Assembly: GCA_000091205.1 (NCBI GenBank)
Contig: AP006495.2
Source of the DNA: Cyanidioschyzon merolae
Taxonomy: Eukaryota
Strand: one strand, 5' to 3'
Length of the DNA stretch: 64,000 nt
A program made the translations under genes and the position numbers. The notes below the pieces were generated by a model, which was not told the DNA's origin, did not search any database, and saw only the letters and a list, made by a program, of their open reading frames with translations. Position 1 is the first letter of the stretch, and each line of letters begins with the position of its first letter. Positions 4,445 to 63,840 of the stretch are shown here, in pieces.

Positions 4445-4870
4445 ACCGACTCTTCATACTGTCGCCTTTCTTGCAGCCTTTGATGTCGGGCTTCCTTCTT
4501 TTGCTCCTTCGTCTCGTCCTGTTCTTCTTTGCTTAGCACTATTTTTCATTCTCTCCGTAAGTCGGCGACACTGTGCCTCCGGGATCCTCCACTTGCTTTT
4601 CCATACCTTTCCTTTTTAATATTTTATGAAAAATAACGCTCGTTAAACGCGTCTGGTAGAAACCGCGAAAAATCACTTTCGTTCACTGACTTGAGGATTA
4701 GAACACAATTGAATTGAAAAACTATACGTTGCCACGACTTTAATGCAAATACAACTTGACCGGTAGAGCAACAAGACAACGAATGGTCACGAATGCATTT
4801 CCCTTCAAAGGCGACATGCGCGTCGTGTCTCGAGGCTGCCAGGTTTGGAGATGCGCGTATCGAGCGCGCT
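2330..4870 (-). mobile_element. Fanzor/TnpB-like element, copy A (decayed)
   Basis: Minus-strand ORF pieces 4220..4444, 3379..3993, 3219..3476 and 2319..3143 together align to one ~700-aa protein. It carries RuvC-I (VDGADPMNTNIIT), RuvC-II with a zinc-binding segment (TIPVDEFRTSYTHHELGC...EKCQRS) and RuvC-III (FVNRDFNVAINIRRC, about 2570-2597). Frameshifts fall near 3480 and 3200. The conserved 5' flank (to about 4870) and the 3' tail (to about 2330) are shared with copies B and C. Confidence 0.75.
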
Positions 4871-5757
4871 ATATAGAACAAAGAACAGAGACTCACTTGT
4901 AACTAGCAACGAGATAACGAGTTCTTTCCCTGTGTACGATCAACGTCAAAAATGGGGAAAAGATTTCCATATTGTCCAAAATATTCCTCATAGACGGACG
5001 GTCCCGCGAGCCGGACAAGTCTACCAGGCTGGTGCTTCCTGCTCCCCCAGCGGCAGGCGCTTTCGTGAACTCCGAGCAGCACGTCCGCAACGCCATTCAT
5101 TGTGGAATTACAAGTCGGCAGAATGCTTCTGGGCGTGTCGCCCTGGTCGCAGAGGGCTCCTAATACGCTGCTTCACGCTGCCGCAGGCAGAGGGTCTATC
5201 TGCCCAGGTATCAGCCTCTCAAAATGATATTTAGCCCTGATTCCGTAGCAGATGGAGCACGCCTCGAGCCGACGCCCTCTGTGGTATAAAAAAGCCGTTC
5301 TAGCTCTATGAACTATCTGCTCCAGCTGTTCAGGCGCAAAGGCGGATACGGAAAGGCAGGTACTCGGCGCACGATAGAACATAGGAGACGACCAGCATAT
5401 CCGAGAGGAATTATGGTTAACGAAGCTTGAAGGAAGGGTGCAGCATGATGAAAGCTTTTGAGCTTTCCAATATCCATCCCGCAGTCTGGGATCCGTAGTC
5501 CATACAAACGTGCTGTCATCGAAAAGCAAAAAATCGGACACACAGACTCGACGCGTCGACGGCGCTACGTTTGGCGGCTAGCGGCCTGGTGGCGCCTTTT
5601 CGCTGGGCGCAATTCGCTGCGGCGGACTGACTGAATGGGCGATAGCGCGGCAGCCATTGGAAGGCCGCGCTGTGGTATGTACGGAACCTAAGACGCTGGA
5701 GTCGCATGGGGTTGGACTCTTGACCAAAGAACCCTTCAACTTCTCCTTTGTGTACAT

Positions 5758-8789: not shown

Positions 8790-9060
8790 CGCAACGGAAC
8801 GAAATCGTTTCACGAACACAGGGTAAATGAATACCCATTCACAGACTCCTTCAAACCTTTTTCGACCGGCCGCCTGTTATCGCTTTAAGCTTCTCCTTGT
8901 TGAATTCGAGCCTGAGAGGCTGTGCGAAAAAATCAGATCAAAGCAGCTCCTCGGGTCAAGTCTTCGTCAACGCATATCTCCTGATTCTTGTTGCAGTGTT
9001 AAGGTCTCGGTTCACGAATTCCATGCGTTTATTGCCTATGGTGGAACTCACCAATGTAGG
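8790..9060 (-). mobile_element. solo Fanzor 3' fragment (degenerate C-terminus plus tail)
   Basis: Reverse-complement translation reads GNKRMEFVNRDLNTATRIRRYALTK. The downstream segment cttttttcgaccggccgcc matches the conserved tail motif ttttctcgaccggcc. This is part of composite repeat (i). Confidence 0.55.
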
Positions 9061-9189
9061 GAGTCCTCGAACTCGCGTCCTCAAAGCCATTTCGCTGCTC
9101 TGTCAGCTCTCACTTATTTTCTATATCCTAAGCGCTGCGCTACCCTCTCCCCGTCAAGACCTTCTAAGTTGTACACCCTAGATCACCTC

Positions 9190-10110
9190 TTATTTTCTGA
9201 GAATGCACGCACTGTATTATGCCCTTTGGTGAGGACCCTCCCGGCAGGAGAAGCACTTGCGCAGGAGAGACGACATGGGTCCCAGTATGTCACCGTGCGC
9301 TGAACTCTTGAACGGTTCGCCCATTGGAGCGATCATAACGTTTCACAATTGAAATCTCTCTTCCGATTTAGTTGACCAACGGAGCGAATAGAGGAATGAG
9401 AAGCAGCTCTACCCGGATAGAAATCCCAAAGGCTCCAACGCAAGTGGAATTCTGAAATGCACGGTGTCCAACAGGAGGACGTATCCAGGTTTCAGGGAAA
9501 AGTTTTCTATGATTCGACGCAATGGTTGGTGCTGTCGTATACGAGCCCCCGCTACGAGCGAAACTGATGCCGACAGGTGGATGCGCTGCAGCTAGAACAC
9601 ATGATGATATCATCGTTCTCCTCCAGTTTGCTTGTACACACAAAGGCTCCCTTCACCTCCGGGAACATCCACATACGCTCCGACCGTCTCGTCCGAAATA
9701 ACTCTCATCGACTGAAAAAAAAACCGACGTCCCTGTGATTCATACTCTTTGTGAAGTTCCAGGAACGCTGCAGTCCCGATTTCGGTGCAAGATGGCCGTG
9801 AATGTCCTACCACTTTTTTGTGTCTGTAGCCCAGTGTTTGAGGACCACACGAACCAGCTGGTGAAAAACAGAGACACCTATTGTGGCTACTATCGTCGCT
9901 TTTGTTTCTCGTAAAGTGATCAATAGGACGTGTTCTATCATTGACTGCGAGCAGTCTCTGAGAATATCGGTTTTTGGCACGGAGCGCATACGCTCCTTTC
10001 TTACAGTGACCCCCAACCATATGAGTTCTGTTGTATAACTTACCTGAAAGCGAAATGCAGTCCTCCTTGCACTTTTCAGTAAGCAATGCATCCTACAGGC
10101 AATTCTGCTA
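9190..10110 (+). repeat. diverged copy of the ~950-bp 'MNALLRAS' repeat unit
   Basis: The 5' part (ttattttctgagaatgcacgcact..., with an AIITFH-encoding stretch near 9320-9350) and the 3' end (caaccatatgagttctgttgtata...cctacaggcaa, about 10020-10105) align to units 43177-44135 and 62899-63840. Confidence 0.5.
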
Positions 10111-27974: not shown

Positions 27975-28789
27975 GTTTCCCCTTCACTGACTTGCCGGAT
28001 TGCATTATCATCATTGAAGGCAAGGCCTCCGCGGAGCAATATTTGAAACGCCATCTGCAGCATCCTCAAGGATGCTACTGCTAGTGATTCCGTCATGGGG
28101 GGCGCTGCCAGCTTTCCGGTAGCTGTGATGCCTGCAACTTTGCTGGTACTCTGTTCCCTTGATGCATGATTGGAGCGAATCTTCGGTTTGTGTACGTTAG
28201 CGAGCATGATGAGATGCCACGTGCACTGCGCCTGCGTCGGTTTCATGTTATGTGGAGGCTTTGAGGATCAGAATGGATGTGACGGCCATGAAAGCAAATG
28301 TGGCATCCTAGAATTGCGATGGAACGCAAAAGAAACGATGCCTAGTGCTGACCTCCCAAAGAGGAAACGGCAGAGGATGCTGGCAGCTCCTTTGCGATGG
28401 TGCCAGACCTTGATGGACATTTGATCCACGGGTTATCCCTACCTAGTGATAAACGACTTGTCCGTGCCAGTGGAACGAAGACTCCAGCGTGCTTGTATAC
28501 GTTTCATAATCTTTCACCTACATTGTGTTCCGGCCCTAGGTGGGTGTAATCAAATGCTTTTTCGAGGTTTATAGCAGATTCGCTCGAAAGGCGTTCTTTT
28601 TCAGAAATCGAAAATCTACAAAATGGTTTGGACGTGGAAATTGGGGGTCCCGGAGTTCCGTTGTCCCCGAGTTCAACAAAAAAAGGAAAAAATCCTCTTC
28701 TCGCCAACCTCGCAGCGAAGAAGAGCATGTTACGAAGATGAAGATTGTGACGAGACTGTAGTGGGACAGAGGGTACGAGTTCGAGGAAT

Positions 28790-29060
28790 TCTCCCACTAC
28801 TGTGTTCAACTGGCGGGAAGAAACGCAACGAGTTTGTGAACCGGGACTTCAATGCCGCCATGAATATCAGACGATGCACGGCGAAGCCGAGACCCGACCA
28901 GCCCACGCGAGCCAACTCTGTTGGGCAGCCTCTCAGGCTCGACGCGCAAAAGTAGAAGCTGAGGGCGATTGCAGGGGGCCCGCCAAGAACGGCTGGGAGG
29001 CGTTTGTGACTGGATATCCATTTACCCTACAGCTGCGAAACTTTTTCGCTCCGTTGAGCT
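28790..29060 (+). mobile_element. solo Fanzor 3' fragment
   Basis: Translation reads GGKKRNEFVNRDFNAAMNIRRCTAKPRPDQPTRANSVGQPLRLDAQK, followed by a tail containing ggctgggaggcgtttg. It overlaps the antisense strand of the 3' end of the TMEM53-like gene region. Confidence 0.6.
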
Positions 29061-31799: not shown

Positions 31800-32110
31800 T
31801 GAGTCACCAATCGCAAAATCGTTGCAGAGCTAATTGCCCTGTAATGCTTCGTGGAACGAAAAATGTCCAACGACCATGGAGGGTACATGTATCTACCCTC
31901 TCGCAGACGCTTCCCAGCTTGTATTCGACCTGCCCCCAACTATCGGCTTCAGCTTCCCTTTGTCCGCTTGGAGCCTGAGAGGCCATCCCCCGAAGTTGGC
32001 TCGCGTCAGCTCCTCGGGTTTCGTCTTCGGCACGGCACACCGTCTTTTATTGATGGCGGTGTTGAAATCTCAGTTCATGAACTCCATGTGTTACCTGCTG
32101 ATGGTTGAAC
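31800..32110 (-). mobile_element. solo Fanzor 3' fragment (degenerate)
   Basis: The plus strand is antisense to the Fanzor C-terminus (antisense ORF LPFVRLEPERPSPEVGSRQLLGF... mirrors those of other copies). The tail motif gcagacgcttcccagc...cgacc is near 31886-31910. Confidence 0.5.
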
Positions 32111-32989
32111 CCATCAGTGCTTAGATTGCTAGAACTCGCGCCCTCGGCGCCACTAAAGTCTCGTCATCGCCCCGTCGCGCAGAAAGCTTTTTCTCCGATC
32201 TCCCCTTCTTCTTCTTTACTGGCTCATCTGCTATTGATGATCGGCGAGAAGAGGATTTTTTCGTTGTTTACCAGCAGTAGGCGGCAATGACGGCACTCCG
32301 GAATCCCCCACTTCCATGGCCAAACATTTCCTTTAGATTTCCTATTTCTTCAAATGAACGCGCTTCGAACAAATCTCCCGTAAACTGCGAAAAAGCATTC
32401 AATAGCATCCACATGGGGTGGAACATAATTAAGGTACTCCAAACCTAGACTGTTGCGCCTGGGCGTGAGCAGCCTGCGAACAATTTTACGCTGAGTTATC
32501 TGTTAAAGTCTTGGACTGATCCTGTGTGAAAGATAGTTGGTTTCAGAGCTTGCTGCGGTACGAAGATCGTGACCGAAAGTCAGGAAGGTTTGCGTTAGTC
32601 GCTTCGGCGTTTCACAGTACCCTTGATAAACGTTGGGCTGTGTCGAGGTATGCAATCGTAAGCGTTCCTGTTCAGCACCTCTGGAGCACCTGTTTTGGAT
32701 TTGGTCTCAGCCAGTAGGAGCTCTCGCAAAACCACAGAGTTGAGCGACCATAATTTAATGTGAGTTGCGGGAGCCGTAGTTTTCGTCCGCAAAATTGCCA
32801 TCAACCACGAACGACGCACTCGCTTAGGACCTCTTTTGTGTAGACTGGACAACAGCATCAAAGCTTGGGAATAAGGTTGTGCTGTATCCGGTCGAAAAAG
32901 TGCACGGCGGCGTCTCCGAAACGGCCACCAGGTTGCCTCCTTTCGTGAAAACTCTCGGACTCGCCGGGCATAACACCGAAAGAGGATCT

Positions 32990-39282: not shown

Positions 39283-39560
39283 CCGCACACCAACAACGCC
39301 GTTCGAAAGTCGAACGACGTCGGGCGTGTACAGAAGTGGCGAGTGACCCGCCCTAGACAAGAAGTCGCCATCTGTGGCGCAGACGCCTCCCAGCCCTTTT
39401 GGACCGGCCACCTACTATTGCTTCCAACCCTGTCTCATATATTTCAACTTTTAGAGGTTGTCCAATGAAGTTGTCTCTCGTCAACTCTGGAGGTCTCTTC
39501 TCCAGCACCGCACATCTCCTTATATTGATTGCGGCATTAAAGTCTCTGTTAACAAATTCC
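39283..39560 (-). ncRNA. candidate omega-RNA/right-end region of Fanzor copy B
   Basis: The last ~150 nt of coding sequence plus ~100 nt of non-coding tail are conserved in every copy and fragment. Antisense consensus is cagtagtggcg...gcgccctagac...ctgatgtgcagatgc...ttttctcgaccggcc. By analogy with TnpB/Fanzor this is where the guide RNA scaffold is encoded. Not shown to be transcribed. Confidence 0.35.
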
Positions 39561-41782
39561 GTACGTTTCTTGCCATCATTGGTTGTACACACTAATGCAA
39601 GCAGCCCTCGCACTTTCGCCCTCGTTTCCATTTGCTCCTCCATCAGCGGTCTGTACTTTGCTATTTCCTCAGGGCTCCTCTGGCACTTTTCCATTTCGAC
39701 CCTCTGAAGTGTGCACCCCAGCTCGTGGTGTGTATAGGACGTTCGGAACTCGTCTACAGGTATCGTAACGAAACGCCTTGCGCACTCCTTGTACACCCTC
39801 GTCGTTGGAGCTGGCGTAGTGCCGTTCTTGGGCGCCCAGCGCCCTGCCCCATACGTTACTACGAGCCTCTGACTTTCATTCTACTCGAGGGCGCTCAATT
39901 GATTAAAAAAATTCGCGAACGCCCGCTGCTTTTCACAGTAGAGATTCATTCGCAACCGAGCCCACCGGGGCTTGGTGTACTCCTCCCACAGCGCATCCCA
40001 ATGCGCAACGCGAACTTCCATGCATTCCCGAAAAGCTCGAAAGTCCGCTCCGCGGCTCGTCACCTCGCTCAAAGCTTCCAGGTGATCCTTCATTCCTGCT
40101 CTCCATGCCTCGATTTTCTTCCTTGCATTCATGATTCCCGATTCTCGATAGTACCTCGCTCTCGAGAATCTCAAAAGACGCATATCTTTCTGACGTAAGT
40201 TACCGTCAGTCCCATCTTCCGTACGCTTCGGTGCTGCGATGGTTATGATATTCGTATTCCCGGGGTCCGCGCCAAGGACAAAGTCGTTATCTTGCACTTT
40301 CTGGGTCGCAAGATCCGCCTCCTTCTTTTCTTCATGCTTCGCCGCGCTAACGACAATGTGGTTATCCTCCATCTCCTGCGTCGCAGAATCCGCCTCCTTC
40401 TTTTCTTCATGCTTCGTCACGTCAACGACAAAGTCGTTCTCATGCACTTTTTGCGTCGCAGGACCCACCTCCTTCTTTTCTTCATGCTTCGCCTCGTCAA
40501 CGACAAAGTCGTTATCCTCCACCTCCTGCATCGCAGGATCCTCCTCTTTGTTTTCTTCATCTTTCGTCACGGGCGCAGCTGAGGGAGGGACTGACCGATC
40601 TTTCTTCAACCGCCGATAGTGTACACACAAGGCTACTCCATCGGTTTCGATCATCCCAGTGAACAACTTTTGCTCGCTCACTCTCAGACGTTTGAAATTG
40701 AAGATATTCTTCCAGTACGTCTTCCGGTTTTCGCCGGTGAAGTCCTCCCTGCTAACAATGAACTCCGGACTGATCTCCTTCATGATGTCGTGAAGGACTG
40801 CGGAGTCGATAGTCACAAAATGTGACTTGATATTGTACAATGGAACCGCGTTGAAGCGCTTACCCATTAGGAAGGCCTTCCGTCTCTCCCACTGTTCATT
40901 TGTCTCTTCACTCAGCTTCATCTCTACTTTGCGTTCGAGTTCACGGTCCAGAAACACAACTTAGCGCAGGACGAGGCGGTAGTATCTTTCCTTATCTTTT
41001 TTCAGCTCTGATATCTTGTCTGTTGGATTCGCCAGACCCAAAACTGCACGGTGCTCTTCTACAACTGCACGGATTACAGAATCCTAATTTGTGCTCCTGC
41101 GTGACGCCTTCTTGTCGACAAATTCGAACTCATCTTCACACTGTCGATTGTTCGTGATGCCATTGATAATCGTCCATATCCCCTTGCGAGAGACGCCGGG
41201 ATAGAGTGCAAACACGTCGCGTATCATGAAACGTTCGTGGTTCATCGTCAATTGGTTCTTCAGGTTCGTAATGTACTTCATTGCCCCGTATGTGTAAATA
41301 TTTCCGTCACCGCAGTATCGATTACCCTCGAAGCAGAATTCCGCGAAGTTTTCGTGGAGGACTTCCACCCGCTCATTTTCCCTCCGCGCTTCCTCTGTAC
41401 CAAGCATCAGCTGACGAATAAAGGTCTTATCGAAAAACTCGTCCGGAATCTCGACCGTTTCCATGTTCGTCACGTCGCGATACATCTCCCTCGCTAGATG
41501 CATCAGTCCTGACGACGCCTTGAAAATACTCTTGGAGTACGAATCGAAACGTTTTTCGAATGCGTCTCGCATCTTTTCCCTGTAGTGATCCTTGATATGT
41601 TTAAGAAGACCGGCTTTCGCCACCATCTCGTCGTACAGTTGTCTTTCTTGCCGCCTTAGACGTTGAGCCTCCCCCTTTCGGTTCTTCTTCTCTTCCTTTT
41701 CTTCTGGACTCGGTACTGTTTTTTGTTTTTTTCTGGCAGCCGGCGACCCTGGACCTCCAGGATCGTCGATTTGCTTTTTCAT
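39353..41782 (-). pseudogene. Fanzor-like RNA-guided RuvC nuclease homolog, interrupted by stops and a frameshift (copy B)
   Basis: Three consecutive ORFs align colinearly to copies A and C. Catalytic D (RuvC-I), E (RuvC-II) and D (RuvC-III) motifs are all present in this copy. Confidence 0.75.
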
Positions 41783-42756
41783 AGCTTTCCTATTTTAGTT
41801 TTTTTGAAAAAGAATGCTCTTTGAACCCTTGTGTTACATACAGCGAAAAACACTTGACTAGACTTGTTTGAGGGCTGAAACAGAAACGAGCTGAAAGACT
41901 GTACTTGGCTACCACCTCAACGGATATCCGACTTTTTACAGCTGAACAACACGCTCCTGGTCAGCATCGCGTTTCCCTTCAACGGCGGCATGTGCATCGC
42001 GTCAGTTGACTGCCTGATCTCCGAGATGCGTTCATTAAGCGCAATGCGTCCACCGCACGAGACGCCACTCCGATCGATGAAGGACACGTGTCCGACACCC
42101 CGCATTGGCACATGCGTGTTCGCATCGCATTGCAGCCAAACTAAAGTATCGAAAATAGGAAACTCATGTAGAACGATCTCTTGCTATAGACTCTGTCGCT
42201 GGTGCCGAAGCTACTGCCCATCGCAGTACCGCCTTGACATACATGGAAATGTTGGGACCTGACGCGATACCTCGCGATGCTTCTATCAAAAGCATAGCGT
42301 TCTCTGCGGCTTACCGTTGTGTGGATGACGTATGCATCACTCTTCTCAAAAGGAATTTCGTTAGTTTTATTCATCGTAACCAAACTAGGTACGGTGGGAT
42401 TCCTGAACACGGACATACGTTTAATGCCGATGCTTGTCATGCATGCTGCACTGACGCTGGAATGAGGAACTGACCTGAATTATGCTTCTATCCTGCGTCA
42501 TAGGCTGGTACTGGTGACCGTTCAAGTCATTTCCATGCTATCGTCGTAGCCAACTTATGGTGCCCGCTACGTTCCCCGGATCCGGTGATCATGGTAGAGG
42601 CACACCACACATGTAGCGTCCATATCTGCCAAGACGTTCGAGCCTTGCATCTCGGCTGACACGATCGAGGAACCCGACAAAAGCACATACTGTATTCTGG
42701 TCTACTCCATAAGATTAGCTTCAAGAGCCTAACCCGTACATCGACGACCGCACACG

Positions 42757-43126
42757 CACACAAAACGCCGTTCCAAGTCGAAAGACGGCAGTGTACAGTA
42801 GTGGCGGCGAACGCGCCCTAGACAAAACGTCTCCAACTGATGTGCAGATGCTTCCTAGTTTTTCTCGACCAGTCCCCTGCTATCGGTTTCAGTTTCTCCA
42901 CGTTCACTTGGGCCTGGAGAAGCTGTCCCACAAAGTTGGTTCGCTTCAGCTCTGCGGGTCCCTTCTTCTGCACCGCAAAGCCCCATATATCAATAGCAGC
43001 ATTGAGGTCTCGCTCCACGATCCCCAAGCCTTTATTGATGCTGCTTGGACCGACCAGTGCAAGTCGTCCTCGAACTCGTGCCCTCTGTGCCAATTCCTTC
43101 TTTATCAGGTCTCCGTGTTTTTCCAT
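42757..43126 (-). mobile_element. solo Fanzor 3' fragment, part of composite repeat (ii)
   Basis: ORF 42818..43126 reads ...RARVRGRLALVGPSSINKGLGIVERDLNAAIDIWGFAV.... A well-conserved tail (cagtagtggcggcgaacgcgccctagac...ttttctcgacc) lies at 42757-42900. Confidence 0.65.
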
Positions 43127-43176
43127 CGCCGAAACGCCCCGCTGGCTCTTCTTAAAGTCGACGTTCTGAAACGTAC

Positions 43177-44135
43177 ATCCCAGCTTACATTTCCCGTGAA
43201 TTTTTCATTTCCTCAGAATGAACGCACTTCTTCGCGCCTCTAGGCGACGACCTGCCCGGAGACAGACGGACCTGCGGATGGACGACGATATGTGCCCCGG
43301 TGCGTTACATTGCGGTGCACGCTTCAGCGATTCGCCATGTGCAGCGATCATCACGTTTCACGAAAGGAAACACTCCTTCGATGCGGCTCAACCATGGACT
43401 GTACGAAGCAATGGAAAGCAGCGCTACCCCGATAGAATCGGCAAAGCCCGGGCGCGACGGGAAATAGTGCATTGGCGTATTGTCCTATATAAAAGGATAC
43501 GGCCAGGCGTCAGGGGGTGTGTCTTGAATGACTCGACGAAGTGGCTGGTGCTCTTGTATGAGCCTTCTGCAACAGCGAAACGGAGACCTCGAAATGAGTC
43601 CGCTGCAGCTGGAATAGATGATGATTTCCGAACTCTCCTTGAGTTTGGTGTTAGATATGAAGGGCGCCCTGTATGCGGATGCCCATGTACGATCCGGCTG
43701 TTTCGCGCGAAGGAGGTCTCGCCGGCTGAGCAACCGAACAGAAGCCCCTACGCCGCATACCGGCGGAGACGTTCCAGGAACTCTGCCGTTGCGATTTATG
43801 CGGAAGACAGGCATGAATGAAACAGGACTCTTTTTTGCGACTGTGTCGCAATGTCTCCAGGGCCGCACGAACGAGATGTCGACAAACAAAGACGACCGTG
43901 GTGGCTGCTATCGTCGCTTTTGGTTTCCGCAGAGTGCCTGTTGGGGCGCTTTTCTACGATTGACCGAAAACTTGCTTTAAGAATATCTGTTTACGCCGCG
44001 GAGCGAATGCACACTATTCCAGCGTTTCTCAACCATGTGAGTTCTGTGGTATGAGTGACCTGAAGAAAGAATGCAGTACACCTTGCACTGTTCAGAAACG
44101 ATATATACCCTACAGGCAACTCATCTATAATCTAT
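43177..44135 (+). repeat. ~950-bp 'MNALLRAS' repeat unit (copy 1), near-identical to 62899-63840
   Basis: Direct comparison of the two stretches shows >97% identity with one small indel near 43510. Its ORFs are not preserved between copies, so it is probably non-coding. Confidence 0.8.
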
Positions 44136-51972: not shown

Positions 51973-51974
51973 TC

Positions 51975-54625
51975 ACACCGCAAAACGCCTTTCAAAAGAC
52001 AAAAGCTGTCGCCGGCAGTGCACAGCAGTGGCGAGTGACCCGCCCTGGACAAGACCTCTCAACTAATCTGCAGACGCCTTCCAGCTTTTCTCGACCGGCA
52101 ACCTACCAGTGATTCCAACTTTTTCTCATATACTTCCACCTTCAGAGATTGTTCCACAAAATTCCCTTTTGTCGGCCCGGGAGGTCTCTTTTCCATCACC
52201 GCACATCTACGTATACTGAAAGCGGCGTTAAAGTCTCGGTTCACGAATTCCATGCGTTTCTTCCCGTCCGTCCGACTCACTAGTGCGAGTCGCTCACGAA
52301 CTTTCGCCCTCCTTTCCATTTGCTCCTCCGTCAGCGGTCCGTACTTTTTTATTTCTTCAGGGTTCCGCTGGCACTTTTCCATCTCGGCCCTCTGAAGTGT
52401 ACAGCCCAGTTTATGGTGTGTATACGATTTTCGGAACACATCTATCGGTATCGTAACGAAACACCGTGCATACTCTTTGTAGGGTCTTTTCGCTGGAGCT
52501 GGCATAGTGCCTTTCTTGGGCGCCCATCGTCCTGCTCCGAATGCCACTACGAGCCTCTGACTGTCATCCTCCTTCAAGGCGCTCAACTCGTTGAAAAAAT
52601 TCGCGAATGCACGCTTCCTCCCACAATACATGTTCAGTCGCAGACGAGCCTACATGGGCTTCGAATACTCCTTCCACAGCGCATCCCAATGAGCAACGCG
52701 AACTTCCATGAACTCCCGAAAAGCTTTAAAGTTCGCTCCGCGGCTACTAGCCTCGCTCATAGCTTCCAGGTGATCCTTCACTCCTGGATTCCACTTCTCA
52801 AATTTCTTCCTCTCATTCATCATACCGGATTCTCGGTAGTATCTCGCTCTCGAGAATCTCAAAAGACGCATATCTTTCTGACGTAAGTTACCGTCAGTCC
52901 CATCTTCCGCACGCTTGGGCACAGCGACGGCTATAAAATTCGTGTTTCCAGGGTCAGCGCCAAAGACAAAGTCGTCCTCATGCACTTTTTGCGTCGCAGG
53001 ACCCGCCTCCTTCTTTTCTTCGTGCTTCGCCTCGTCAACGACAAAGTCGTTATCCTCCACCTCCTGCATCGCAGGATCCTCCTCTTTGTTTTCTTCATCC
53101 TTCGTCACGGGCGCAGCTGAGGGAGGGACTGACCGATCTTTCTTCAACCGCCGATAGTGTACACACAAGGCTACTCCATCGGTTTCGATCATCCCAGTGA
53201 ACAACTTTTGCTCGCTCACTCTCAGACGTTTGAAATTGAAGATATTCTTCCAGTACGTCTTCCGGTTTTCGCCGGTGAAGTCCTCCCTGCTAACATTGAA
53301 CTCAGGACTGATCTCCTTCATGATGCCGTAGAGGACGCCGGAGCCGATAGTCACAAAATGTGACTTGATATTGTACAATGGAACCGCGTTGAAGCGCTTA
53401 CCCATCCGGAAGGCCTTCCGTCTCTCCCACTGTTCATTTGTCTCTTCACTCAGCTTCATCTCCGCTTTGCGTTCGAGTTCACGGTCCAGAAACACAACTT
53501 AGCGCATGACGAGGCGGTAGTATCTTTCCTTATCTTTTTTCAGCTCTGATATCTTGTCTGTTGGATTCGCCAGACCCAAAACTGCACGGTGCTCTTCTAC
53601 AACCGCACGGATTACAGAATCCTAATTTGTGCTCCTGCGTGACGCCTTCTTGTCGACAAATTCGACCTCATCTTCACACTGTCGATTGTTCGTGATGCCA
53701 TTGATAATCGCCTATATTCCTTTGCGAGAGATGCCCGGGTAGAGTGCAAACACGTCGCGTATCATGAAACGTTCGTGGTTCATCGTCAATTGGTTCTTCA
53801 GGTTCGTAATGTACTTCATTACCCCGTATGTGTAAATATTTCCGTCACCGCAGTATCGATTACCCTCGAAGCAGAATTCCGCGAAGTTTTCGTGGAGGAC
53901 TTCCACCCGCTCATTTTCCTCCCGCGCTTCCGCTGTACTAAGCATCAGCTGACGAATAAACGTCTTGTCGAAAAACTCGTCAGGAACATCGACTGTTTCC
54001 ATGTGCGTCACGTCGCGATACATCTCCCTCGCTAGATGCATCAGTCCTAAAGAAGCCTCAGGAAAACTCATGGAGTCCAACTCGCAACAGTTTCTGATGG
54101 ACTCCCGCAATTTTTGCTTTTACGAATTCTTGCTATGTCCGAGAAGACAGGCTTTCACGACCATCTCGTCGTACAGTCGTCTTTCTTGCAGCCATTAACG
54201 TAGGGCCTCCCCCTTCTGCTTCTTCGTCTTGTCTCGTTCCTCTATGTTTGGCTCTATGTATCGTTTTTTTCGCCAGCCAGCGATACTGGCCCTCCAGGGT
54301 CCTCCACGTCGCTGTCCAGAACATTGGTTTTTTATTTTTTGAAATAGAACGCACTATGAACGTCTCTGCTCTAAACCACGAAAAATACTCGAATACTCTT
54401 ATTTGAGGGTTGAAACACAACTGAAATAGAAGCCGTACTTGGCTACGACCTGACCGGAAATCCAACTTTTACATTACGGCCACACGCCAGAGATTAAGAT
54501 CACGTTTCCTTTCAACGGCGACATGCGCGTCGTGTCTCATGTCTGCCTGATCTCCCGGGTGCGCTCACCAAGCGCAATGCGTGCACCGCGCGAGACGCTG
54601 CACCAATCGATAAAGGCCTAAGATC
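51975..54625 (-). mobile_element. Fanzor/TnpB-like element, copy C (pseudogene)
   Basis: ORFs 53712..54110, 52650..53495 and 52059..52631. RuvC-I FGADPGNTNFIAV. RuvC-II is degraded to IPIDVFRKS (E to V). RuvC-III is degraded to RDFNAAFSI. Two TGG-to-TAG nonsense changes (about 52645 and 53700). It shares the same TAG/TAA in-frame stops as copy B (53500-53640). Two acidic repeat units. Confidence 0.8.
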
Positions 54626-57514: not shown

Positions 57515-57574
57515 ATGCGACTGTTGCACAGATGACCGCCCGGGCCCTGTGTCAGTCCTCCGGAGGTGCGCCAA

Positions 57575-58090
57575 CGCTTACACCGCTGGCAAACGCCTTT
57601 CAAAAGTCGAAAGCAGTCGTCAGCAGTGCACAGTAGTGGCGGCAAACGCGCCCTGGACAAAACGTCTTCAGCTGAACTGCCGAAGCCTCACTGTCTCTCT
57701 CGACCGGCCACCTACAACTGGCTTCAACTTCATTCCGTACAATTCGACCATGGAAGGCTGCCACACAAAGCTGGCTCCTGTCAGCTCCTCGAATCGCTTC
57801 TCCAGCACCGCGCATCGTCTGATATTGATAGAAGCATTAAAGTCTGGGTTCACAAACTCCATGCGCTTCTTGCCCCCGTTGGTTGTACCCACCAGTGCGA
57901 GGAGTCCTCGAACTTTCGCCCTCATTTCCATCTGCTCTTCCGTCAACGGTCTGTACTTTTCTATATCCTCAGGGATTGGCTGAAACTGCTCTATCTTGAC
58001 CCTCCGGGACGTACACCGCAGCTCGTGGTGTATATATGATGTTTGGAGCTCATGTATCGGTATTGTGACGAAGCATCGTTCGCAATCCTT
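57575..58090 (-). mobile_element. solo Fanzor 3' fragment (longest; includes the RuvC-II region)
   Basis: ORF 57668..57946 reads ...RAKVRGLLALVGTTNGGKKRMEFVNPDFNASINIRRCAVLEKR. 57950-58090 aligns to the copy A DEFRTS region. A conserved tail (gcctttcaaaagtcgaaagc...cagtagtggcggcaaacgcgccctggac) lies at 57575-57700. Confidence 0.65.
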
Positions 58091-58719
58091 GTACGCTCAT
58101 TCCGAGTCGCTGTTAACCGGAAACGATATTCTCCTCGAAAAGCCATGAAAGTGGTGCTGTGGCTTTCCGCCAGACACGGTGGCTGCTTTTGCCGTGCCCA
58201 TGGCCCTGCAGGCGTGTTTCAGGGTGCGCTGACTGCACAAAAGCGCCGAGTTCGCGCTGCTGCCCTAGCATCTGGGTGCTGGCAGCTCCACAGCACAGAT
58301 ATCTCATGATGTGCGGGTGGAGCATGCTGCTTCAGCACCGTAAGAACGACGCGCTCTCATGCGCGTTCCCCCATGATCCAAGATGTAATCCATAGAGTGA
58401 TACTGGCGGCTATCACCGAGCGTCTTGCATATAGAATGCAAATCTGGGAACTGCATCCTAGGGCTCGGAGTTCCATGTCACGAACAGTGCATATGCTCAA
58501 GATCGGTGCTCGAAGCGAACGCGCTGTACACCATACACTGCATTGCTGCACGAGAACAGTGCTATGCTCGGGGCCGGATAGAGTACCTTACGAAAAGTCA
58601 GCAGGAACGTCGCTTTCAGGTACGGTGCGTGACACGGGCCAGGCGAGAGCGATCCGTTTGCCCCTCACTTCGGAATGCGAATTCGCTGTTCATGAGTGTC
58701 TTCCCGTAGTAATGCCTCT

Positions 58720-59010
58720 TTACTTCAGTTCAGAGGCGCGCCTGTTCGAGTTGGTTTTGCGCTTGCGTTCGAGCTTTTTGCCGATTCTATCGTGGAGTAG
58801 ACCTGCTTTTTATTCCTCCTTGTACTCCGTGATTCACGCCCATCAAAGACGTATTTTCTATTGTGAAACGTAATGATCGCAGCACTGGGCGAATCGCTGA
58901 AGCGTTCTGCACAATCACGTCGGAGCATACGTCGTCGTTCTTCAGCAAGTCTTTCTCCCTCCGGCCAGATCGTCGACTACGGGCATTCAGAAGTGCGTCC
59001 ATTTGACGAA
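58720..59010 (-). repeat. partial 'MNALLRAS' repeat unit (inverted), adjacent to Fanzor fragment 59270-59520
   Basis: Minus-strand ORFs encode MDALLNARSRRSGRREKDL... and ...CAERFSDSPSAAIITFHNRKYVFD, homologous to the start of units 43177 and 62899. Confidence 0.5.
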
Positions 59011-59269
59011 ATAGAAAATCCGTGCGAAAGGTATGGACATGAAATCTAGGGATTCCGGAGGGCTGTCATTGCCAGGCACCGGGAAAATGGAAATAATCCC
59101 CTTCTCGTCGACCACTGAGCGAAGAAGAGCAAGTGACGACGACGACAAAGAAGAGAATAGATAGGCGAGAAAAGATGCATGCCCGACGAGACGCAGGCGA
59201 TTCTTGAGTAGCACAGAGGGCGCGAGCTCTTAGAATCTTCGCATAGATGAATTCAGTCAGCGGCAATAA

Positions 59270-59520
59270 ATGAAAGGTATTCGTGAACCGAGACTTCAAC
59301 GCCGCCATCAACATCAGGTGATATCTGGTGTCCAGGACGAGACCCGAGGATCTGAGGCGATCCAGCTTTGTGGGGCAGCCTCTCAGACTCGAATTGCAGA
59401 AGGAGGAGCTGAAACCGATAGCAGAGGGGCTGTCTAAAACGGGCTTGGAGGTGTTTGTGAGTGGATATTGATTTATCATGCATCGCTGCCGAACGTTTGT
59501 AGTTTCACGGACGATGGGCA
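59270..59520 (+). mobile_element. solo Fanzor 3' fragment
   Basis: 59274-59320 reads VFVNRDFNAAINIR then a stop. Next comes ...SSFVGQPLRLELQKEELKPIAEGLSKTGLEVFVSGY and the tail gggcttggaggtgtttgtg. Confidence 0.6.
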
Positions 59521-61083: not shown

Positions 61084-62462
61084 TCATCCGCTCGTTCCTT
61101 GACTTGCGGCAAATTATAGAGCCATATTCCAAATAAGAGCACGCCTAAACCGAGCAGGACCATAAACGAAAAACGAGACTGGACCAGCAGCGGTACTGGC
61201 AGGCAGAAAACTAGCGTTGTTAGCGGCACAGAAATCAACGATGCAACCACGGAGTCGAGAGCGGATGCGATTTTCAGCAATCGCAAACCCGTGATGTTGA
61301 ATACAATATTCACAGCAACGTACGCAAGAGCTAGCCACGGCATCCAACTGCTCTCACGCCCCGCAAATGTGCTGAGTGCACTAGAAAAGTAATCGCCAAT
61401 GGAGGGGCTTTCAGCCAAGCGAGCTGCAAAAGGTGTTGTGAAAGGCAGCATGAGCGAGATAGCAGCAAACTGCATGAGGCTCGAAAAAGTATTGACAATG
61501 AACAGATCCGGTTGCACGCCACTTCGTTTGAAAACGCGCTCTTTGAGTACAACGGCTAAGGCAACGAATGCGTAGGATCCGAAGAATAAAAACGCATTCA
61601 TCCATACGCCTCCCGAAGAGAGATTCAAAGCTGCTTCGTTCACAGTTTGAGGGCCAATGGAAATCAGCACACCGGCGAGGACAACAAGCATGCCATAAAT
61701 TTGGGTGAGCGTGTAGCGACGACCTAGCAGAGCATACGAGGCCAAGGCAATGAATATGAGGATTCCTTGATTCAGTACTGGAAGCAGAGCACCGGGAAGC
61801 CGAGAAGCAGTAAACATACCGATTACGAAAGTAAGCGCCTCCAGTGCCCCAATGAGGGCGAACAGACGCCAGTTATTCACTGCCCACTTGACCTGCGTCA
61901 TAGGGACAATACGCATGCGCACTCGTATCCAGAGAATAGAGGCATAAACCAGCACGTAGCACAAGGTGACAAAAAGTGAGAGGAAAAATGTGTACGAATA
62001 CATTATCTGCAAGTCCATCCGGTAAACTACGCGGTTCAAGACCGATAACGCCACGTACGCTGCAGTGGTCAACAGCACGTCAGACGACACCCGCGTCGCT
62101 ATTCTACCACCCGTTTTTGCAGTTTTATTCTGCTGCATGAGCAAAGAGGCTTTCCGCATTTCAACGGGTCTACTTCGGGGTGCAGTAAAGCGGGGTCCAG
62201 GCTCCACGGGGCACCCCGCAAACGTTACTCGTGCCCTAGCGCCAGTCGAGCGGAAGGCTTGGTAAAGCCGACTGACAGGCGCTTTATTTACCTCCGCTGG
62301 ACTAGCAACATGATTTCTACGGGCAAAGGGGTTAGACTTTATGGAGTGAGCGGAACAAAACTGTGATATCCATCCACTGTTGGTGAACATTGCATGCTCA
62401 TCTTTGCCACCAGAACGAAAAATTTGCCACCGCCGGGTAAATTCATGCTCGCGCGCAGACAT
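61080..62462 (-). CDS. CRT-like transporter (PfCRT/CLT family, DMT superfamily), ~10 TM
   Basis: [11 protein letters not shown] resembles Pf[80 protein letters not shown] resembles [72 protein letters not shown]...NTFSSLMQF...LPF resembles REIVFKKYKI...NAMVSFFQLF...LPV. ATG at 62462 lies inside Fanzor-derived sequence, so the start is uncertain (alternatives at 62393 or 62156). The 3' end overlaps the uL3 stop by 4 bp. Confidence 0.65.
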
Positions 62463-62764
62463 CTGCTAGCCTCTCTCGACTGGCTACCTGCTACAGGATT
62501 CAGTTTCTTTTTGTACATTTCTACCCTGAGAGATTGCCCCACGAAGTTGGCTCTTGTCAGCTCTGCGGGTCTCTTCTTCAGCACCGCACATCTCTCGATA
62601 TTGATAGCAGCATTAAAGTCTCGTTTCGCGTACTCCTGGCGTGCATAGTCGTTGGTTGAAGTCATCTCTCCAGGAATTTCTGGTAATCGTTCCCTCTGTA
62701 CCACGTTAGTAATGTCATCGCCCCGTCGGTCAAAAGAGTCTTCTCGGCTGTCTCCCTTTTTCAT
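62345..62764 (-). mobile_element. solo Fanzor 3' fragment, part of composite repeat (iii)
   Basis: ORF 62339..62764 reads ...YARQEYAKRDFNAAINIERCAVLKKRPAELTRANFVGQSLRVEMYKKKLNPVAG. The tail motif gcagacatctgctagcctctctcgactggc is at 62455-62490. The fragment overlaps the 5' end of the CRT-like ORF. Confidence 0.6.
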
Positions 62765-62898
62765 ATTCTTCTTCTACGTCATCGTCACTTGCTCTTCTTT
62801 GCTTGATGGTCTTCGAGACGAGAAATTTTTCATTTTCTTTCGAGGCCGGAGATGACGGCCCTCCAGGATCTTCGAATTCCATGTGCTAACGTTTCCCA

Positions 62899-63840
62899 TG
62901 AATTTTTCATTTCCTCAAAATGAACGCACTTCTTCGTGCCTCTAGGCGACGACCTGCCCGGAGACAGACGGACCTGCGGATGGACGACGATATGTGCCCC
63001 GGTGCGTTACATTGCGGTGCACGCTTCAGCGATTCGCCATGTGCAGCGATCATCACGTTTCACGAAAGGAAATACTCCTTCGATGCGGCTCAACCATGGA
63101 CTGTACGAAGCAATGGAAAGCAGCGCTACCCCGATAGAATCGGCAAAGCCCGGGCGCGACGGGAAATAGTGCATTGGCGTATTGTCCTATATAAAAGGAT
63201 ACGGCCAGGCGTCAGGGAGTGTGTGTCTCGAATGACTCGACGAGGTGGCTGGTGCTCTTGTATGAGCCTTCTGCAACAGCGAAACGGAGACCTCGAAATG
63301 AGTCCGCTGCAGCTGGAATAGATGATGATTTCCGAACTCTCCTTGAGTTTGGTGTTAGATATGAAGGGCGCCCTGTATGCGGATGCCCATGTACGATCCG
63401 GCTGTTTCGCGCGAAGGAGGTCTCGCCGGCTGAGCAACCGAACAGAAGCCCCTACGCCGCATACCGGCGGAGACGTTCCAGGAACTCTGCCGTTGCGATT
63501 TATGCGGAAGACAGGCATGAATGAAACAGGACTCTTTTTTGCGACTGTGTCGCAATGTCTCCAGGGCCGCACGAACGAGATGTCGACAAACAAAGACGAC
63601 CGTGGTGGCTGCTATCGTCGCTTTTGGTTTCCGCAGAGTGCCTGTTGGGGCGCTTTTCTACGATTGACCGAAAACTTGCTTTAAGAATATCTGTTTACGC
63701 CGCGGAGCGAATGCACACTATTCCAGCGTTTCTCAACCATGTGAGTTCTGTGGTATGAGTGACCTGAAGAAAGAATGCAGTACACCTTGCACTGTTCAGA
63801 AACGATATATACCCTACAGGCAACTCATCTATGATCTATA
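62899..63840 (+). repeat. ~950-bp 'MNALLRAS' repeat unit (copy 2)
   Basis: Near-identical to 43177-44135. Ends with the shared ...ttctcaaccatgtgagttctgtggtatgagtgacctgaag...cctacaggcaactcatctat. Confidence 0.8.

What the first reader, a model, noticed from the sequence alone, without database searches (positions are those of the whole stretch)
39283..42080. A family of Fanzor/TnpB-like RNA-guided-nuclease elements in a eukaryotic chromosome
Three ~2.5-2.8-kb copies (2330-4870, 39283-42080, 51975-54625) encode a ~700-aa protein with the full TnpB/Fanzor RuvC triad. RuvC-I is GADPGNTNIIT, RuvC-II is PVDEFRTSYTHHELGC...C with a zinc-binding segment, and RuvC-III is RDFNAAINIRRC. Copy B also has an N-terminal basic patch that looks like an NLS (KKQKT, KKNRK). 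The three copies share a ~400-bp conserved 5' flank and a ~100-nt conserved 3' non-coding tail. At least seven further solo 3' fragments bring the family to 10 or more members in 64 kb. This is an OMEGA-type system domesticated in a eukaryote, or still parasitising it. The lineage and the target/TAM are unknown.
Basis: partly seen in the sequence, partly recalled or inferred. Interest (0 to 1): 0.9.

Follow-up and report, generated by a model that had tools for sequence, protein, structure and literature searches.

The report
Known Fanzor1 transposons in red alga

Summary
The window is Cyanidioschyzon merolae 10D chromosome 13. In detail: there are three long minus-strand copies and seven short relatives, and the quoted motifs are present verbatim.

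The Fanzor assignment passes sequence and structure tests.
- A family profile hits only solved Fanzor1 proteins (E 9e-30 to 1.5e-17).
- An AlphaFold model (pLDDT 84) matches the Fanzor1 cryo-EM structures (E about 1e-15).
- The D, E and D residues align with SpuFz1 metal ligands D383, E541 and D606.
- The canonical RuvC-II Glu is replaced by Gly, which is the rearranged Fanzor active site.

Pfam alone does not reach threshold, and the zinc ribbon is degenerate.

All three window copies are pseudogenes. Across the family the nuclease core has dN/dS of about 0.2, and a few nearly intact ORFs exist in hot-spring metagenomes.

Five of the seven "solo 3' fragments" are short internal-deletion elements that keep both ends. 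The other two are 5'-truncated copies.

An omegaRNA at the 3' end is inferred by homology only. I found no significant covariation, fold stability or extra conservation there.

Bao & Jurka (2013) already reported one Fanzor1 family in this alga: CMe-1A, about 150 copies, about 3 kb, no TIR or TSD. Verdict: real, correctly read, already known.

The parts
39286..42083 (-). Copy B of the Fanzor1 element, the part shared with copy C. Its subfamily-specific 5' leader is shared with other loci up to about 42840.
   Evidence: BLASTN and nhmmer. The 3' conservation drop is.
39353..41782 (-). Fanzor1 pseudogene of copy B. One frame, 809 codons, with three internal stops (TAG 41084-41086, TAA 40961-40963, TAG 39881-39883).
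41672..41737 (-). N-terminal basic patch ARKKQKTVPSPEEKEEKKNRKG. It fits the classical bipartite NLS pattern KK-X12-KKNRK.
   Evidence: Read from the sequence. N-terminal NLSs are common in Fanzors (PMC10530073). Function was not tested.
40267..40560 (-). Tandem repeat of 75 bp (25 aa), 3.9 copies, in the acidic linker just upstream of RuvC-I. Copy A has 1 unit, C has 2, B has 4, and some metagenome copies have more.
   Evidence: TRF, alignment. It is disordered in the AF2 model, residues 379-469 of P0001.
40265..40267 (-). RuvC-I catalytic Asp (D506 of the reconstructed B protein, motif GADPG).
   Evidence: Aligns with SpuFz1 D383. Near-invariant in 94 relatives.
39749..39751 (-). Relocated RuvC-II Glu (E678, motif VDEFRT). 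The canonical position (YGAGRW, aa 644-649) holds Gly.
   Evidence: Aligns with SpuFz1 E541. The rearranged site is described in PMC10530073.
39542..39544 (-). RuvC-III catalytic Asp (D747, motif NRDFNAAINI).
   Evidence: Aligns with SpuFz1 D606.
39286..39352 (-). 3' non-coding tail with a terminal hairpin (CGTTCGA-CTT-TCGAACG). It is the candidate 3' part of an omegaRNA scaffold and the right end of the element. The flank below about 39286 would be the guide.
   Evidence: Conservation profile and alignment. The RNA role is inferred only.
2342..5520 (-). Copy A, heavily frameshifted, of the subfamily with the ~680-nt 'class IV' 5' leader.
51974..54620 (-). Copy C. A pseudogene with at least 6 in-frame stops, an N-terminal frameshift and the catalytic Glu changed to Val (IDVFRK).
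42754..43186 (-). 5'-truncated copy (last ~120 codons plus tail), lying directly upstream of copy B.
57572..58094 (-). 5'-truncated copy (last ~140 codons plus tail).
8792..9444 (-). Short non-autonomous relative from a divergent subfamily. Its 3' module matches aa ~715 to the end, and its upstream part is shared with the elements at 58777 and 62438. No direct match to B's 5' region was found for this one.
28506..29031 (+). Short internal-deletion element: 5' UTR plus about the first 33 codons, fused to the last ~95 codons plus tail.
   Evidence: (matches to B positions 253-432 and 2521-2771).
31877..32435 (-). Short internal-deletion element of the same kind.
58777..59498 (+). Short non-autonomous relative. 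It shares 665 bp with the element at 62438-63147.
62438..63147 (-). Short internal-deletion element, with a 5' match to B 330-468 and a 3' match to B 2566-2774.

Best explanation
**What it is.** The repeats are copies of the single Fanzor1-encoding transposable-element family of the red alga Cyanidioschyzon merolae, called CMe-1A in Repbase and in Bao & Jurka 2013.

**What a full element contains.** It is 2.8-3.2 kb and carries one intron-less ORF of about 750-810 aa. In order, the protein has:
- a basic N-terminus that looks like an NLS
- REC and WED domains
- an expandable acidic 25-aa repeat linker
- a split RuvC nuclease with the Fanzor-type relocated glutamate
- a degenerate TNB/zinc ribbon

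The element has a subfamily-specific 5' leader and a sharply defined, hairpin-bearing 3' end. It has no TIRs and no transposase gene.

**Shown here.** Family identity, fold, catalytic residues, copy structure, pseudogene status and purifying selection on the nuclease core.

**Inferred from the characterised Fanzor1 enzymes SpuFz1, GtFz1 and PpFz.**
- An intact copy would transcribe through its 3' end.
- The 3' region would fold into an omegaRNA scaffold bound by the protein.
- The read-through flank would serve as a ~20-nt guide.
- The RNP would cut TAM-flanked matching DNA in the nucleus. As proposed for TnpB, this would favour retention or re-copying of the element by homologous repair.

**Status in this window.** The three long copies are dead. 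B has 3 stops. C has many stops and has lost the catalytic Glu. A is frameshifted. The seven short relatives are non-autonomous derivatives or truncations that keep the 3' module. They could at most be mobilised in trans or supply RNA.
For: **Organism.** Six window ORFs are identical to C. merolae 10D proteins BAM81075-81089 on an 866,983-bp record.

**Prior description.** PMC3627910 lists one Fanzor1 family in C. merolae: CMe-1A, about 150 copies, about 80% identical to a ~3-kb consensus, no TIRs, TSD undetermined, some copies still intact.

**Fanzor1 identity.**
- Profile against the PDB hits only Fanzor1.
- The AF2 model has pLDDT 84 and its top seven Foldseek hits are Fanzor1 structures, E about 1e-15, target-normalised TM up to 0.72.
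- D, E and D align with SpuFz1 D383, E541 and D606.
- D484, E656 and D725 (P0001 numbering) are near-invariant in 94 relatives.
- The canonical Glu is replaced by Gly, as described for Fanzors.

**Family size.** 5140 representative clusters at E<=1e-3. 335 relatives in hot-spring metagenomes.

**Selection.** dN/dS is 0.43-0.50 over the whole ORF and 0.15-0.35 over RuvC residues 500-714.

**Nearly intact ORFs.** L022 has 747 aa from its first Met. L001, L003 and L004 have 752 aa.

**Element ends.**
- Sharp 3' boundary: column conservation (share of copies carrying the commonest base) falls from 0.80-0.89 to 0.34.
- A terminal hairpin is kept in two different sequence versions.
- No TIRs.
- Short derivatives keep the 5' and 3' modules.
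Against: **No direct evidence for an omegaRNA.**
- RNAalifold finds no consensus structure.
- A hand-built 5-helix model is 79.7% paired, the same as in shuffles (79.7%). Compensatory pairs number 10 against 7.1+/-1.7.
- Folding z-scores are only about -1.6 and are not an outlier along the element.
- Mean pairwise identity in the tail is 0.77 for the first 27 nt and 0.57 for the rest, no higher than codon third positions at 0.71.
- dS is not reduced in the last 95 codons.
- Rfam has no hit.

**Other points against.**
- The zinc ribbon has lost most ligand cysteines and Pfam TNB is sub-threshold, so activity of even the intact copies is unproven.
- No intact copy lies in this window.
- The TAM, the TSD and the way new copies arise are undetermined.
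- Identity with the Repbase CMe-1A consensus rests on the paper's description. I had no sequence to compare.
Confidence: 0.88

Rival explanations
1. The elements are inert fossils. The family is extinct in C. merolae 10D and the protein no longer does anything. What we see is neutral decay plus ectopic recombination between old copies.
For: - All three long copies in the window are pseudogenes.
- Most of the 80 metagenome loci lack a long ORF.
- Substitutions in the 3' region show no compensatory pattern, as expected for neutral decay.
- B and C share a ~1.1-kb gene-conversion tract that carries the same two stop codons.
- No copy is annotated as a gene in the NCBI record. The homologue hits come from JGI and ENA only.
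Against: - dN/dS of 0.15-0.35 in the RuvC core between copies with dS of 0.3-0.5 shows long purifying selection during diversification.
- Nearly intact 747-752-aa ORFs exist in related strains.
- Bao & Jurka report intact copies in the genome.
Confidence: 0.3
2. The Fanzor ORF is passenger cargo. The copies are spread by another machine: a non-LTR retrotransposon acting in trans, a Helitron-like or unknown transposase, or segmental duplication. The nuclease plays no part in mobility.
For: - The 3' end is constant while the 5' ends vary. There are at least four unrelated 5' leader classes joined to a common core at about the same point.
- One leader class is the 3' part of a LINE with RVT_1 fragments.
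- 5'-truncated copies exist.
- There is a hairpin close to the 3' end and there are no TIRs.
- Fanzor1 genes are known cargo of several transposon superfamilies.
Against: - No poly(A) or other clear retro-tail at the 3' ends.
- No RT in the window, and RT is adjacent at only one locus.
- No Rep/Hel or other transposase was seen in the parts of the flanks I examined.
- Class IV has a reproducible 5' terminus about 680 nt upstream rather than ragged truncation.
- Selection on the nuclease argues that it matters for the element's propagation.
Confidence: 0.2
3. It is a domesticated host gene family rather than a mobile element.
For: - Purifying selection on the nuclease core.
- Copy C ends at the start codon of a host glutaredoxin gene, so part of an element may have been co-opted as promoter or 5' UTR.
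Against: - Ten members in 64 kb at unrelated positions and on both strands, most of them broken.
- 335 relatives in metagenomes with different flanks.
- About 150 copies reported.
- Non-autonomous deletion derivatives exist.
- None of this fits a host gene.
Confidence: 0.03

Closest known systems
CMe-1A, the Fanzor1 element family of Cyanidioschyzon merolae (Bao & Jurka 2013, Mobile DNA 4:12; PMC3627910)
   Same: - Same organism, and the only Fanzor1 family listed for it.
- About 3-kb elements with one TnpB-like ORF, many diverged copies (about 80% identical to consensus), no TIRs and no detectable TSD.
- A distinct ~635-bp 5' part that also exists as a separate repeat, TE-N2_CMe. The ~680-nt class IV leader of copy A fits this description.
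   Different: Nothing essential. This analysis adds the following:
- the pseudogene status of the three chromosome-13 copies
- at least four alternative 5' leaders
- short internal-deletion derivatives
- the 25-aa repeat expansion
- the degenerate zinc ribbon
- dN/dS values

I could not align against the Repbase consensus itself.
SpuFz1, PpFz and GtFz: structurally and biochemically characterised Fanzor1 nucleases (PDB 8GKH, 9CF0, 9CER; PMC10432273, PMC11423790)
   Same: - Same overall fold (Foldseek E about 1e-15, target-normalised TM 0.5-0.72).
- Same metal-ligand D/E/D positions with the relocated Glu.
- Single-ORF element with the RNA module expected at the 3' end.
   Different: - Only 13-15% sequence identity.
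- The CMe protein has lost most Zn-ribbon cysteines.
- It carries a variable 25-aa repeat linker before RuvC-I.
- No omegaRNA, TAM or cleavage data exist for it.
TnpB of IS200/IS605 and IS607 (for example ISDra2 TnpB, PDB 8H1J)
   Same: RuvC/TNB core (Foldseek probability 1.00, E 0.04, 269 aligned columns). Same presumed logic: a guide RNA encoded at the right end of the element.
   Different: - TnpB is prokaryotic, about 400 aa, has the canonical RuvC-II Glu and is usually paired with a TnpA transposase.
- The elements here are eukaryotic, twice as long, have the rearranged site and encode no TnpA.
Chlamydomonas CrFNuc-1 Fanzor loci with extra ORF-less copies of the fRNA region (Jiang et al. 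2023, PMC10530073)
   Same: The genome carries more copies of the 3' RNA-module region than of the nuclease ORF (compared).
   Different: The Chlamydomonas elements sit in Helitron2 transposons and the fRNA was seen by small-RNA sequencing. Here the transposon class is unknown and the RNA is unobserved.

Membership tests
Fanzor1 | Significant sequence homology to established Fanzor1 proteins | tested here: met
   Family profiles hit only Fanzor1 chains in the PDB: 9CF0 at 9.1e-30, 8GKH at 1.7e-24 (4.4e-12 with the 14-sequence profile) and 9CER at 1.5e-17.
Fanzor1 | Fanzor/TnpB fold (WED, REC, split RuvC, TNB) | tested here: met
   AF2 model of the close homologue P0001 (76% identical to B): pLDDT 84.1, pTM 0.82. 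The top seven Foldseek PDB hits are all Fanzor1, E 1.8e-15 to 5.4e-13.
Fanzor1 | RuvC D/E/D with the glutamate relocated downstream and the canonical RuvC-II Glu replaced by Gly or Pro | tested here: met
   - B D506, E678 and D747 align with SpuFz1 D383, E541 and D606.
- The canonical position reads YGAGRW.
- The rearrangement is defined in PMC10530073.
- Copy C fails this test (E to V). Copy A keeps all three residues.
Fanzor1 | Encoded in a eukaryotic (or eukaryotic-virus) genome, multicopy, in a mobile element | tested here: met
   C. merolae 10D chromosome 13. Ten members in the window. 335 relatives in metagenomes.
Fanzor1 | Structured omegaRNA (fRNA) encoded at the 3' end of the ORF and the right end, with the guide in the flank | tested here: inconclusive
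   - For: a sharp 3' boundary and a terminal hairpin kept in two sequence versions.
- Against: no covariation beyond shuffles, z about -1.6, no excess conservation, no Rfam hit.
Fanzor1 | CCCC zinc ribbon in the TNB domain (Pfam PF07282) | tested here: not met
   - PF07282 scores 16.6 bits against a 26.3-bit cut-off on the B piece, and nothing on P0001.
- The alignment shows THHELGC where relatives have CxxC, and the second CxxxxC is lost.
- Distant relatives P0024-P0027 keep it.
- I treat this as a derived loss within the family, not as grounds for exclusion.
Fanzor1 | N-terminal disordered region with a nuclear localisation signal | not testable with these tools
   The sequence fits the bipartite pattern KK-X12-KKNRK. 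No NLS predictor or localisation assay was available.
Fanzor1 | RNA-guided, TAM-dependent dsDNA cleavage | not testable with these tools
   Needs biochemistry.
TnpB (IS200/IS605, IS607) | Adjacent TnpA (Y1 or serine recombinase), prokaryotic IS with LE/RE hairpins, canonical RuvC-II Glu | tested here: not met
   - The 2.8-kb element holds one ORF only.
- The canonical Glu is Gly.
- The host is a eukaryote.
- TnpB 8H1J is only a distant structural hit, E 0.04.
CMe-1A (Repbase) | Sequence identity to the Repbase consensus | not testable with these tools
   The consensus was not available. Assignment rests on organism, size, copy number, lack of TIRs and it being the only Fanzor1 family listed for C. 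merolae.

The most novel reading that the evidence does not exclude
CMe-1A may be a transposase-less, 'Fanzor-only' element that multiplies through a 3'-end-anchored copying process. The process could be RNA-guided break plus templated repair, or template switching. The only cis requirement would be the 3' module of about 350 nt.

This would account for four observations:
- the invariant 3' end
- at least four unrelated 5' leaders, one of them a LINE 3' end, joined at one point
- the short derivatives that keep the 3' module
- tandem arrangements in which a 3' fragment sits just upstream of a full copy (42754-43186 before copy B, with the same layout in L065, L066 and L073)

It would be a mode of Fanzor-driven spread that has not been described.
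Probability: 0.12. Interest if true: 0.65.

Novelty: already known. Interest (0 to 1): 0.25.

Why it matters
As a discovery it adds little. Fanzor1 in C. merolae has been in the literature since 2013, and Fanzor RNA-guided cleavage since 2023.

Two points give it some residual value.

- **A tractable host.** From my own knowledge, not tested here: C. merolae has a tiny, fully finished genome and efficient homologous-recombination genetics. Its Fanzor elements carry no transposase. That makes it a clean system for asking how Fanzor-only elements spread.
- **A hot, acidic habitat.** The alga lives at about 42-45 C and low pH (own knowledge). Nearly intact relatives exist in hot-spring metagenomes. 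An active member could be a thermotolerant compact editor with an unusual zinc-less TNB domain.

Tried and rejected
**Searches that gave nothing usable.**
- Pfam and NCBIfam on the ORF pieces gave only a sub-threshold TNB hit. Pfam on the intact homologue P0001 gave nothing.
- The first AF2 run, with a 15-sequence alignment, failed (pLDDT 38). A 94-sequence alignment fixed it.
- Rfam gave no hit in the window.
- Source names for distant relatives carried no taxonomic information.

**Tests for an omegaRNA, all without a significant signal.**
- RNAalifold on 34-64 copies found essentially no consensus.
- Two hand-built structures were tested for covariation and showed no excess over shuffles.
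- A sliding-window folding z-score along an intact element did not single out the 3' region.
- The per-region z-score was only mildly negative.
- Synonymous-site constraint in the last 95 codons was not seen.

**Tests on the element ends and neighbours.**
- A TIR search between the element ends found none.
- TSD or target-motif inspection at the class IV 5' terminus and the 3' ends found none convincing.
- A search for orthologous empty sites among the fetched loci found none, because all loci are anchored on copies.
- RT in the window: none. RT next to Fanzor was found at one locus only.

**An interpretation I dropped.** I first read the stop codons shared by B and C as common descent from a dead master copy. 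I rejected that in favour of a ~1.1-kb gene-conversion tract.
Full report
**Source of the window.** Six long ORFs of the window are identical to annotated proteins of Cyanidioschyzon merolae strain 10D (BAM81075, 81076, 81078, 81080 and others) on an 866,983-bp record. The locus tag is of the form CMM239C, which I read as chromosome 13. The genome is intron-poor (own knowledge), so reading ORFs directly is appropriate.

**The observation.** BLASTN of copy B against the window finds three long minus-strand copies:
- A at 2375-4829
- B at 39284-42083
- C at 51974-54616

nhmmer extends A to 2342-4870 and C to 54620.

Copy B is a single reading frame from 41782 to 39353, interrupted by three stop codons: TAG at 41084-41086, TAA at 40961-40963 and TAG at 39881-39883. 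Read through, it gives 809 aa.

Copy C has at least six in-frame stops within the homologous region and an N-terminal frameshift. Its catalytic glutamate is changed to valine (IDVFRK). Copy A needs several frameshifts.

tblastn and nhmmer find exactly seven further short relatives, with E from 1e-11 to 1e-48.

**What the protein is.**

*Pfam alone would not have settled it.* The best hit on the window pieces is Cas12f1-like_TNB (PF07282) at 16.6 bits, against a cut-off of 26.3. The nearly intact homologue P0001 gets no Pfam hit.

*Homologues.* A homologue search found close relatives in JGI/ENA metagenome data only: 53-82% identical, many of them fragments. It also found four distant ones, P0024-P0027, 24-26% identical, that pass or nearly pass PF07282.

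*Profile against solved structures.*
- A 14-sequence family profile hits one solved protein family, SpuFz1 (8GKH), at E 4.4e-12.
- An exhaustive HMMER search of 1.84 billion representatives found 5140 clusters at E<=1e-3 and 532 at E<=1e-30, mostly 580-700 aa and matching end to end.
- A 94-sequence profile then hit the three solved Fanzor1 proteins and nothing else below 0.01: PpFz 9CF0 at 9.1e-30, SpuFz 8GKH at 1.7e-24 and GtFz 9CER at 1.5e-17.

*Structure.* AlphaFold2 failed with the shallow alignment (pLDDT 38). With the deep one it gave pLDDT 84.1 and pTM 0.82, with only the repeat linker disordered. Foldseek against the PDB returns seven Fanzor1 cryo-EM entries as the top seven (E 1.8e-15 to 5.4e-13, target-normalised TM up to 0.72). 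Cas12 variants and ISDra2 TnpB follow at E of about 0.02-0.05.

**Catalytic residues.** Saito et al. report that SpuFz1 coordinates its two Mg ions with E541, D383, N385 and D606 (PMC10432273). The 8GKH chain is an MBP fusion. Counting along the HMM alignment gives an offset of 394. With that offset:
- the family's GADPG Asp aligns with D383
- the VDEF Glu aligns with E541
- the NRDF Asp aligns with D606

In the reconstructed B protein these are D506, E678 and D747. In the 94-sequence alignment the same three positions are near-invariant.

The position where canonical TnpBs carry the RuvC-II Glu reads YGAGRW. Replacement by Gly or Pro, together with a conserved alternative Glu downstream, is what Jiang et al. 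describe as the rearranged Fanzor site (PMC10530073).

**The zinc-binding claim is not supported.** Relatives have CxxC ... CxxxxC. The C. merolae proteins have THHELGC, and mostly no cysteine in the second half.

**The NLS claim.** The basic patch fits a bipartite NLS pattern (KK-X12-KKNRK). This is plausible but untested.

**Prior knowledge.** Bao & Jurka 2013 (PMC3627910) list one Fanzor1 family for C. merolae, CMe-1A. They describe it as follows:
- about 150 copies, each about 80% identical to a consensus of about 3 kb
- TSDs not determinable and no TIRs
- some copies still intact
- a 5' 635 bp that is 95% identical to a separate repeat, TE-N2_CMe

Everything found here matches that description. 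I could not align to the Repbase sequence itself. The finding is therefore a rediscovery.

1. *3' end.* In 64 non-identical copies, column conservation (the share of copies carrying the commonest base) is 0.80-0.89 up to B position ~39316, 0.67 over the next 30 nt, and 0.34 beyond ~39286. The last ~40 nt form a hairpin that exists in two sequence versions: CGTTCGA-CTT-TCGAACG and ACGTTTTTC-TTTT-GAAAAGCGT.

2. *5' end.* Upstream of a common core that starts near B 42050, the copies fall into at least four classes with unrelated leaders.
   - Class IV (copy A plus nine loci) has a reproducible 5' terminus about 680 nt upstream. This makes A about 3.2 kb, ending near 5520. It probably corresponds to the TE-N2_CMe-like part.
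   - Class I (B, and partly C) extends up to about 800 nt in some loci.
   - Class III is the 3' part of a non-LTR retrotransposon with RVT_1 fragments.
   - No TIRs and no convincing TSD.

3. *The seven short relatives.*
   - The elements at 28506-29031, 31877-32435 and 62438-63147 match B's 5' UTR plus the first ~33 codons, and also the last ~95 codons plus tail.
   - The elements at 58777-59498 and 8792-9444 match B only at the 3' module. They share their upstream parts with the short elements (58777 with 62438; 8792 with 58777 and 62438), so I class them with the first three.
   - They belong to a more divergent subfamily, about 50% amino-acid identity.
   - The fragments at 42754-43186 and 57572-58094 are 5'-truncated copies of the B/C type.

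4. *A tandem repeat.* A 75-bp (25-aa) repeat ends exactly at the RuvC-I Asp codon. It has 1, 2 and 4 units in A, C and B.

**Selection.** Nei-Gojobori estimates between copies that keep long frames give dN/dS of 0.43-0.50 overall. By region the values are 0.15-0.35 for RuvC residues 500-714, 0.13-0.46 for residues 715-775 and 0.25-0.70 for the N-terminal half, at dS of about 0.3-0.5. The nuclease was therefore under purifying selection while the family diversified. Many individual copies then decayed.

**The omegaRNA question.** By homology, the 3' region should encode the guide RNA. I could not show it.
- RNAalifold gives almost nothing.
- Single-sequence folds repeatedly show a 9-10-bp long-range stem (GCAGUAGUGG ... 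CCACUACUGU) that closes a multibranch domain, followed by the terminal hairpin.
- On a 34-sequence alignment this model is 79.7% paired, the same as in column shuffles. Pairs with compensatory changes number 10 against 7.1+/-1.7 (43 of 500 shuffles reach this).
- Folding z-scores average -1.6 to -1.7. Control segments give -1.2 and 0.0 inside the ORF and 0.0 in the flank. The region is not an outlier in a scan of an intact element.
- Mean pairwise identity in the tail (0.77, then 0.57) is no higher than at codon third positions (0.71). The flank is 0.28.

This is what one expects if most substitutions accumulated neutrally after insertion. The RNA remains an inference.

**Mechanism.** I commit to the following, with the inferred steps marked. 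An intact element expresses a nuclear Fanzor1 (inferred from the NLS-like patch). The protein binds an omegaRNA derived from the element's 3' end and uses the adjacent flank as guide to cut matching TAM-flanked DNA through D506, E678 and D747 (inferred from SpuFz1, GtFz1 and PpFz). This promotes maintenance or copying of the element by repair (inferred from the TnpB model). How new loci are colonised without a transposase is unknown. The invariant 3' end, the modular 5' leaders and the short derivatives suggest that the 3' module is the essential cis element. In this window nothing is active.

**Rivals.** Three alternatives are scored in their own section: a purely fossil family, passenger cargo moved by another machine, and a domesticated host gene.

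**Verdict.** The feature is real and correctly interpreted, but already known. Interest is low to moderate.

Noticed in passing
window 51971-51990 (3' end of copy C and start of the gene at 51374-51973, minus strand): Copy C ends within a few bases of the ATG of the annotated monothiol glutaredoxin gene (BAM81086.1), on the same strand. That gene's promoter and 5' UTR must therefore lie inside the dead Fanzor element, or the gene is transcribed by read-through. The same arrangement is present on a 94,860-bp metagenome contig.
   Followed up: partly
window 40423-41522 (copy B) versus 52977-54060 (copy C): B and C are mosaics. A central ~1.1-kb tract is about 96% identical and carries the same two stop codons (TAG and TAA). 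The 5' parts are only 63-73% identical and the 3' parts about 75-90%. This points to ectopic gene conversion between two copies 12.5 kb apart.
   Followed up: yes
L068 1639-5100 versus window 42610-40416 and 54616-49655: Metagenome contig Ga0080006_1136386 is B-like (97-100%) in its 5' flank and 5' part, and C-like (98-100%) from the shared tract onwards, including C's downstream flank. It is either a strain that lacks the ~12.5 kb between B and C through recombination between the copies, or an assembly chimera across the near-identical tract.
   Followed up: partly
L030 13-655 and 911-1657 (also L029; shared 3' part in L070 and L004 543-898): One class of Fanzor copies is preceded, in the same orientation, by the 3' part of a non-LTR retrotransposon: RVT_1 fragments, then an A-rich stretch just before the Fanzor core. 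The same junction recurs at several loci at 84-90% identity.
   Followed up: partly
window 42754-43186 followed by copy B; L065/L066 398-851 and L073 1375-1476 followed by full copies: There is a recurrent head-to-tail layout in which a 3'-end fragment of one element lies 0.6-1.6 kb upstream of a full copy on the same strand.
   Followed up: no
L002 (Ga0194039_1000997), gene at 5001-6962: The distant homologue P0024 (26% identical, intact CxxC...CxxxxC zinc ribbon, PF07282 above threshold) sits among genes for Evr1/Alr, XPG, TFIIS and LicD/glycosyltransferase 25. From my own knowledge that gene set is typical of giant viruses.
   Followed up: no
whole window: Ten family members lie in 64 kb. 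The published figure of about 150 copies in a ~16.5-Mb genome (genome size from my own knowledge) would predict about 0.6 per 64 kb, so this is a local repeat-rich island between ordinary host genes. None of the Fanzor ORF pieces looked up appears in the NCBI protein set of strain 10D.
   Followed up: partly
window 16456-16633 (+): A weak match (67% over 180 nt) to the class IV 5' leader of copy A (window 5262-5440). It may be a remnant of the TE-N2_CMe-like repeat without a Fanzor core.
   Followed up: no
P0001-P0023 and the look-up of encoding contigs output for L001: The close homologues carry a precomputed weak or faint hit to Pfam PF26935 (DUF8286). That family is absent from the Pfam copy I could scan. 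It may be a recently built model covering part of this Fanzor1 lineage.
   Followed up: no
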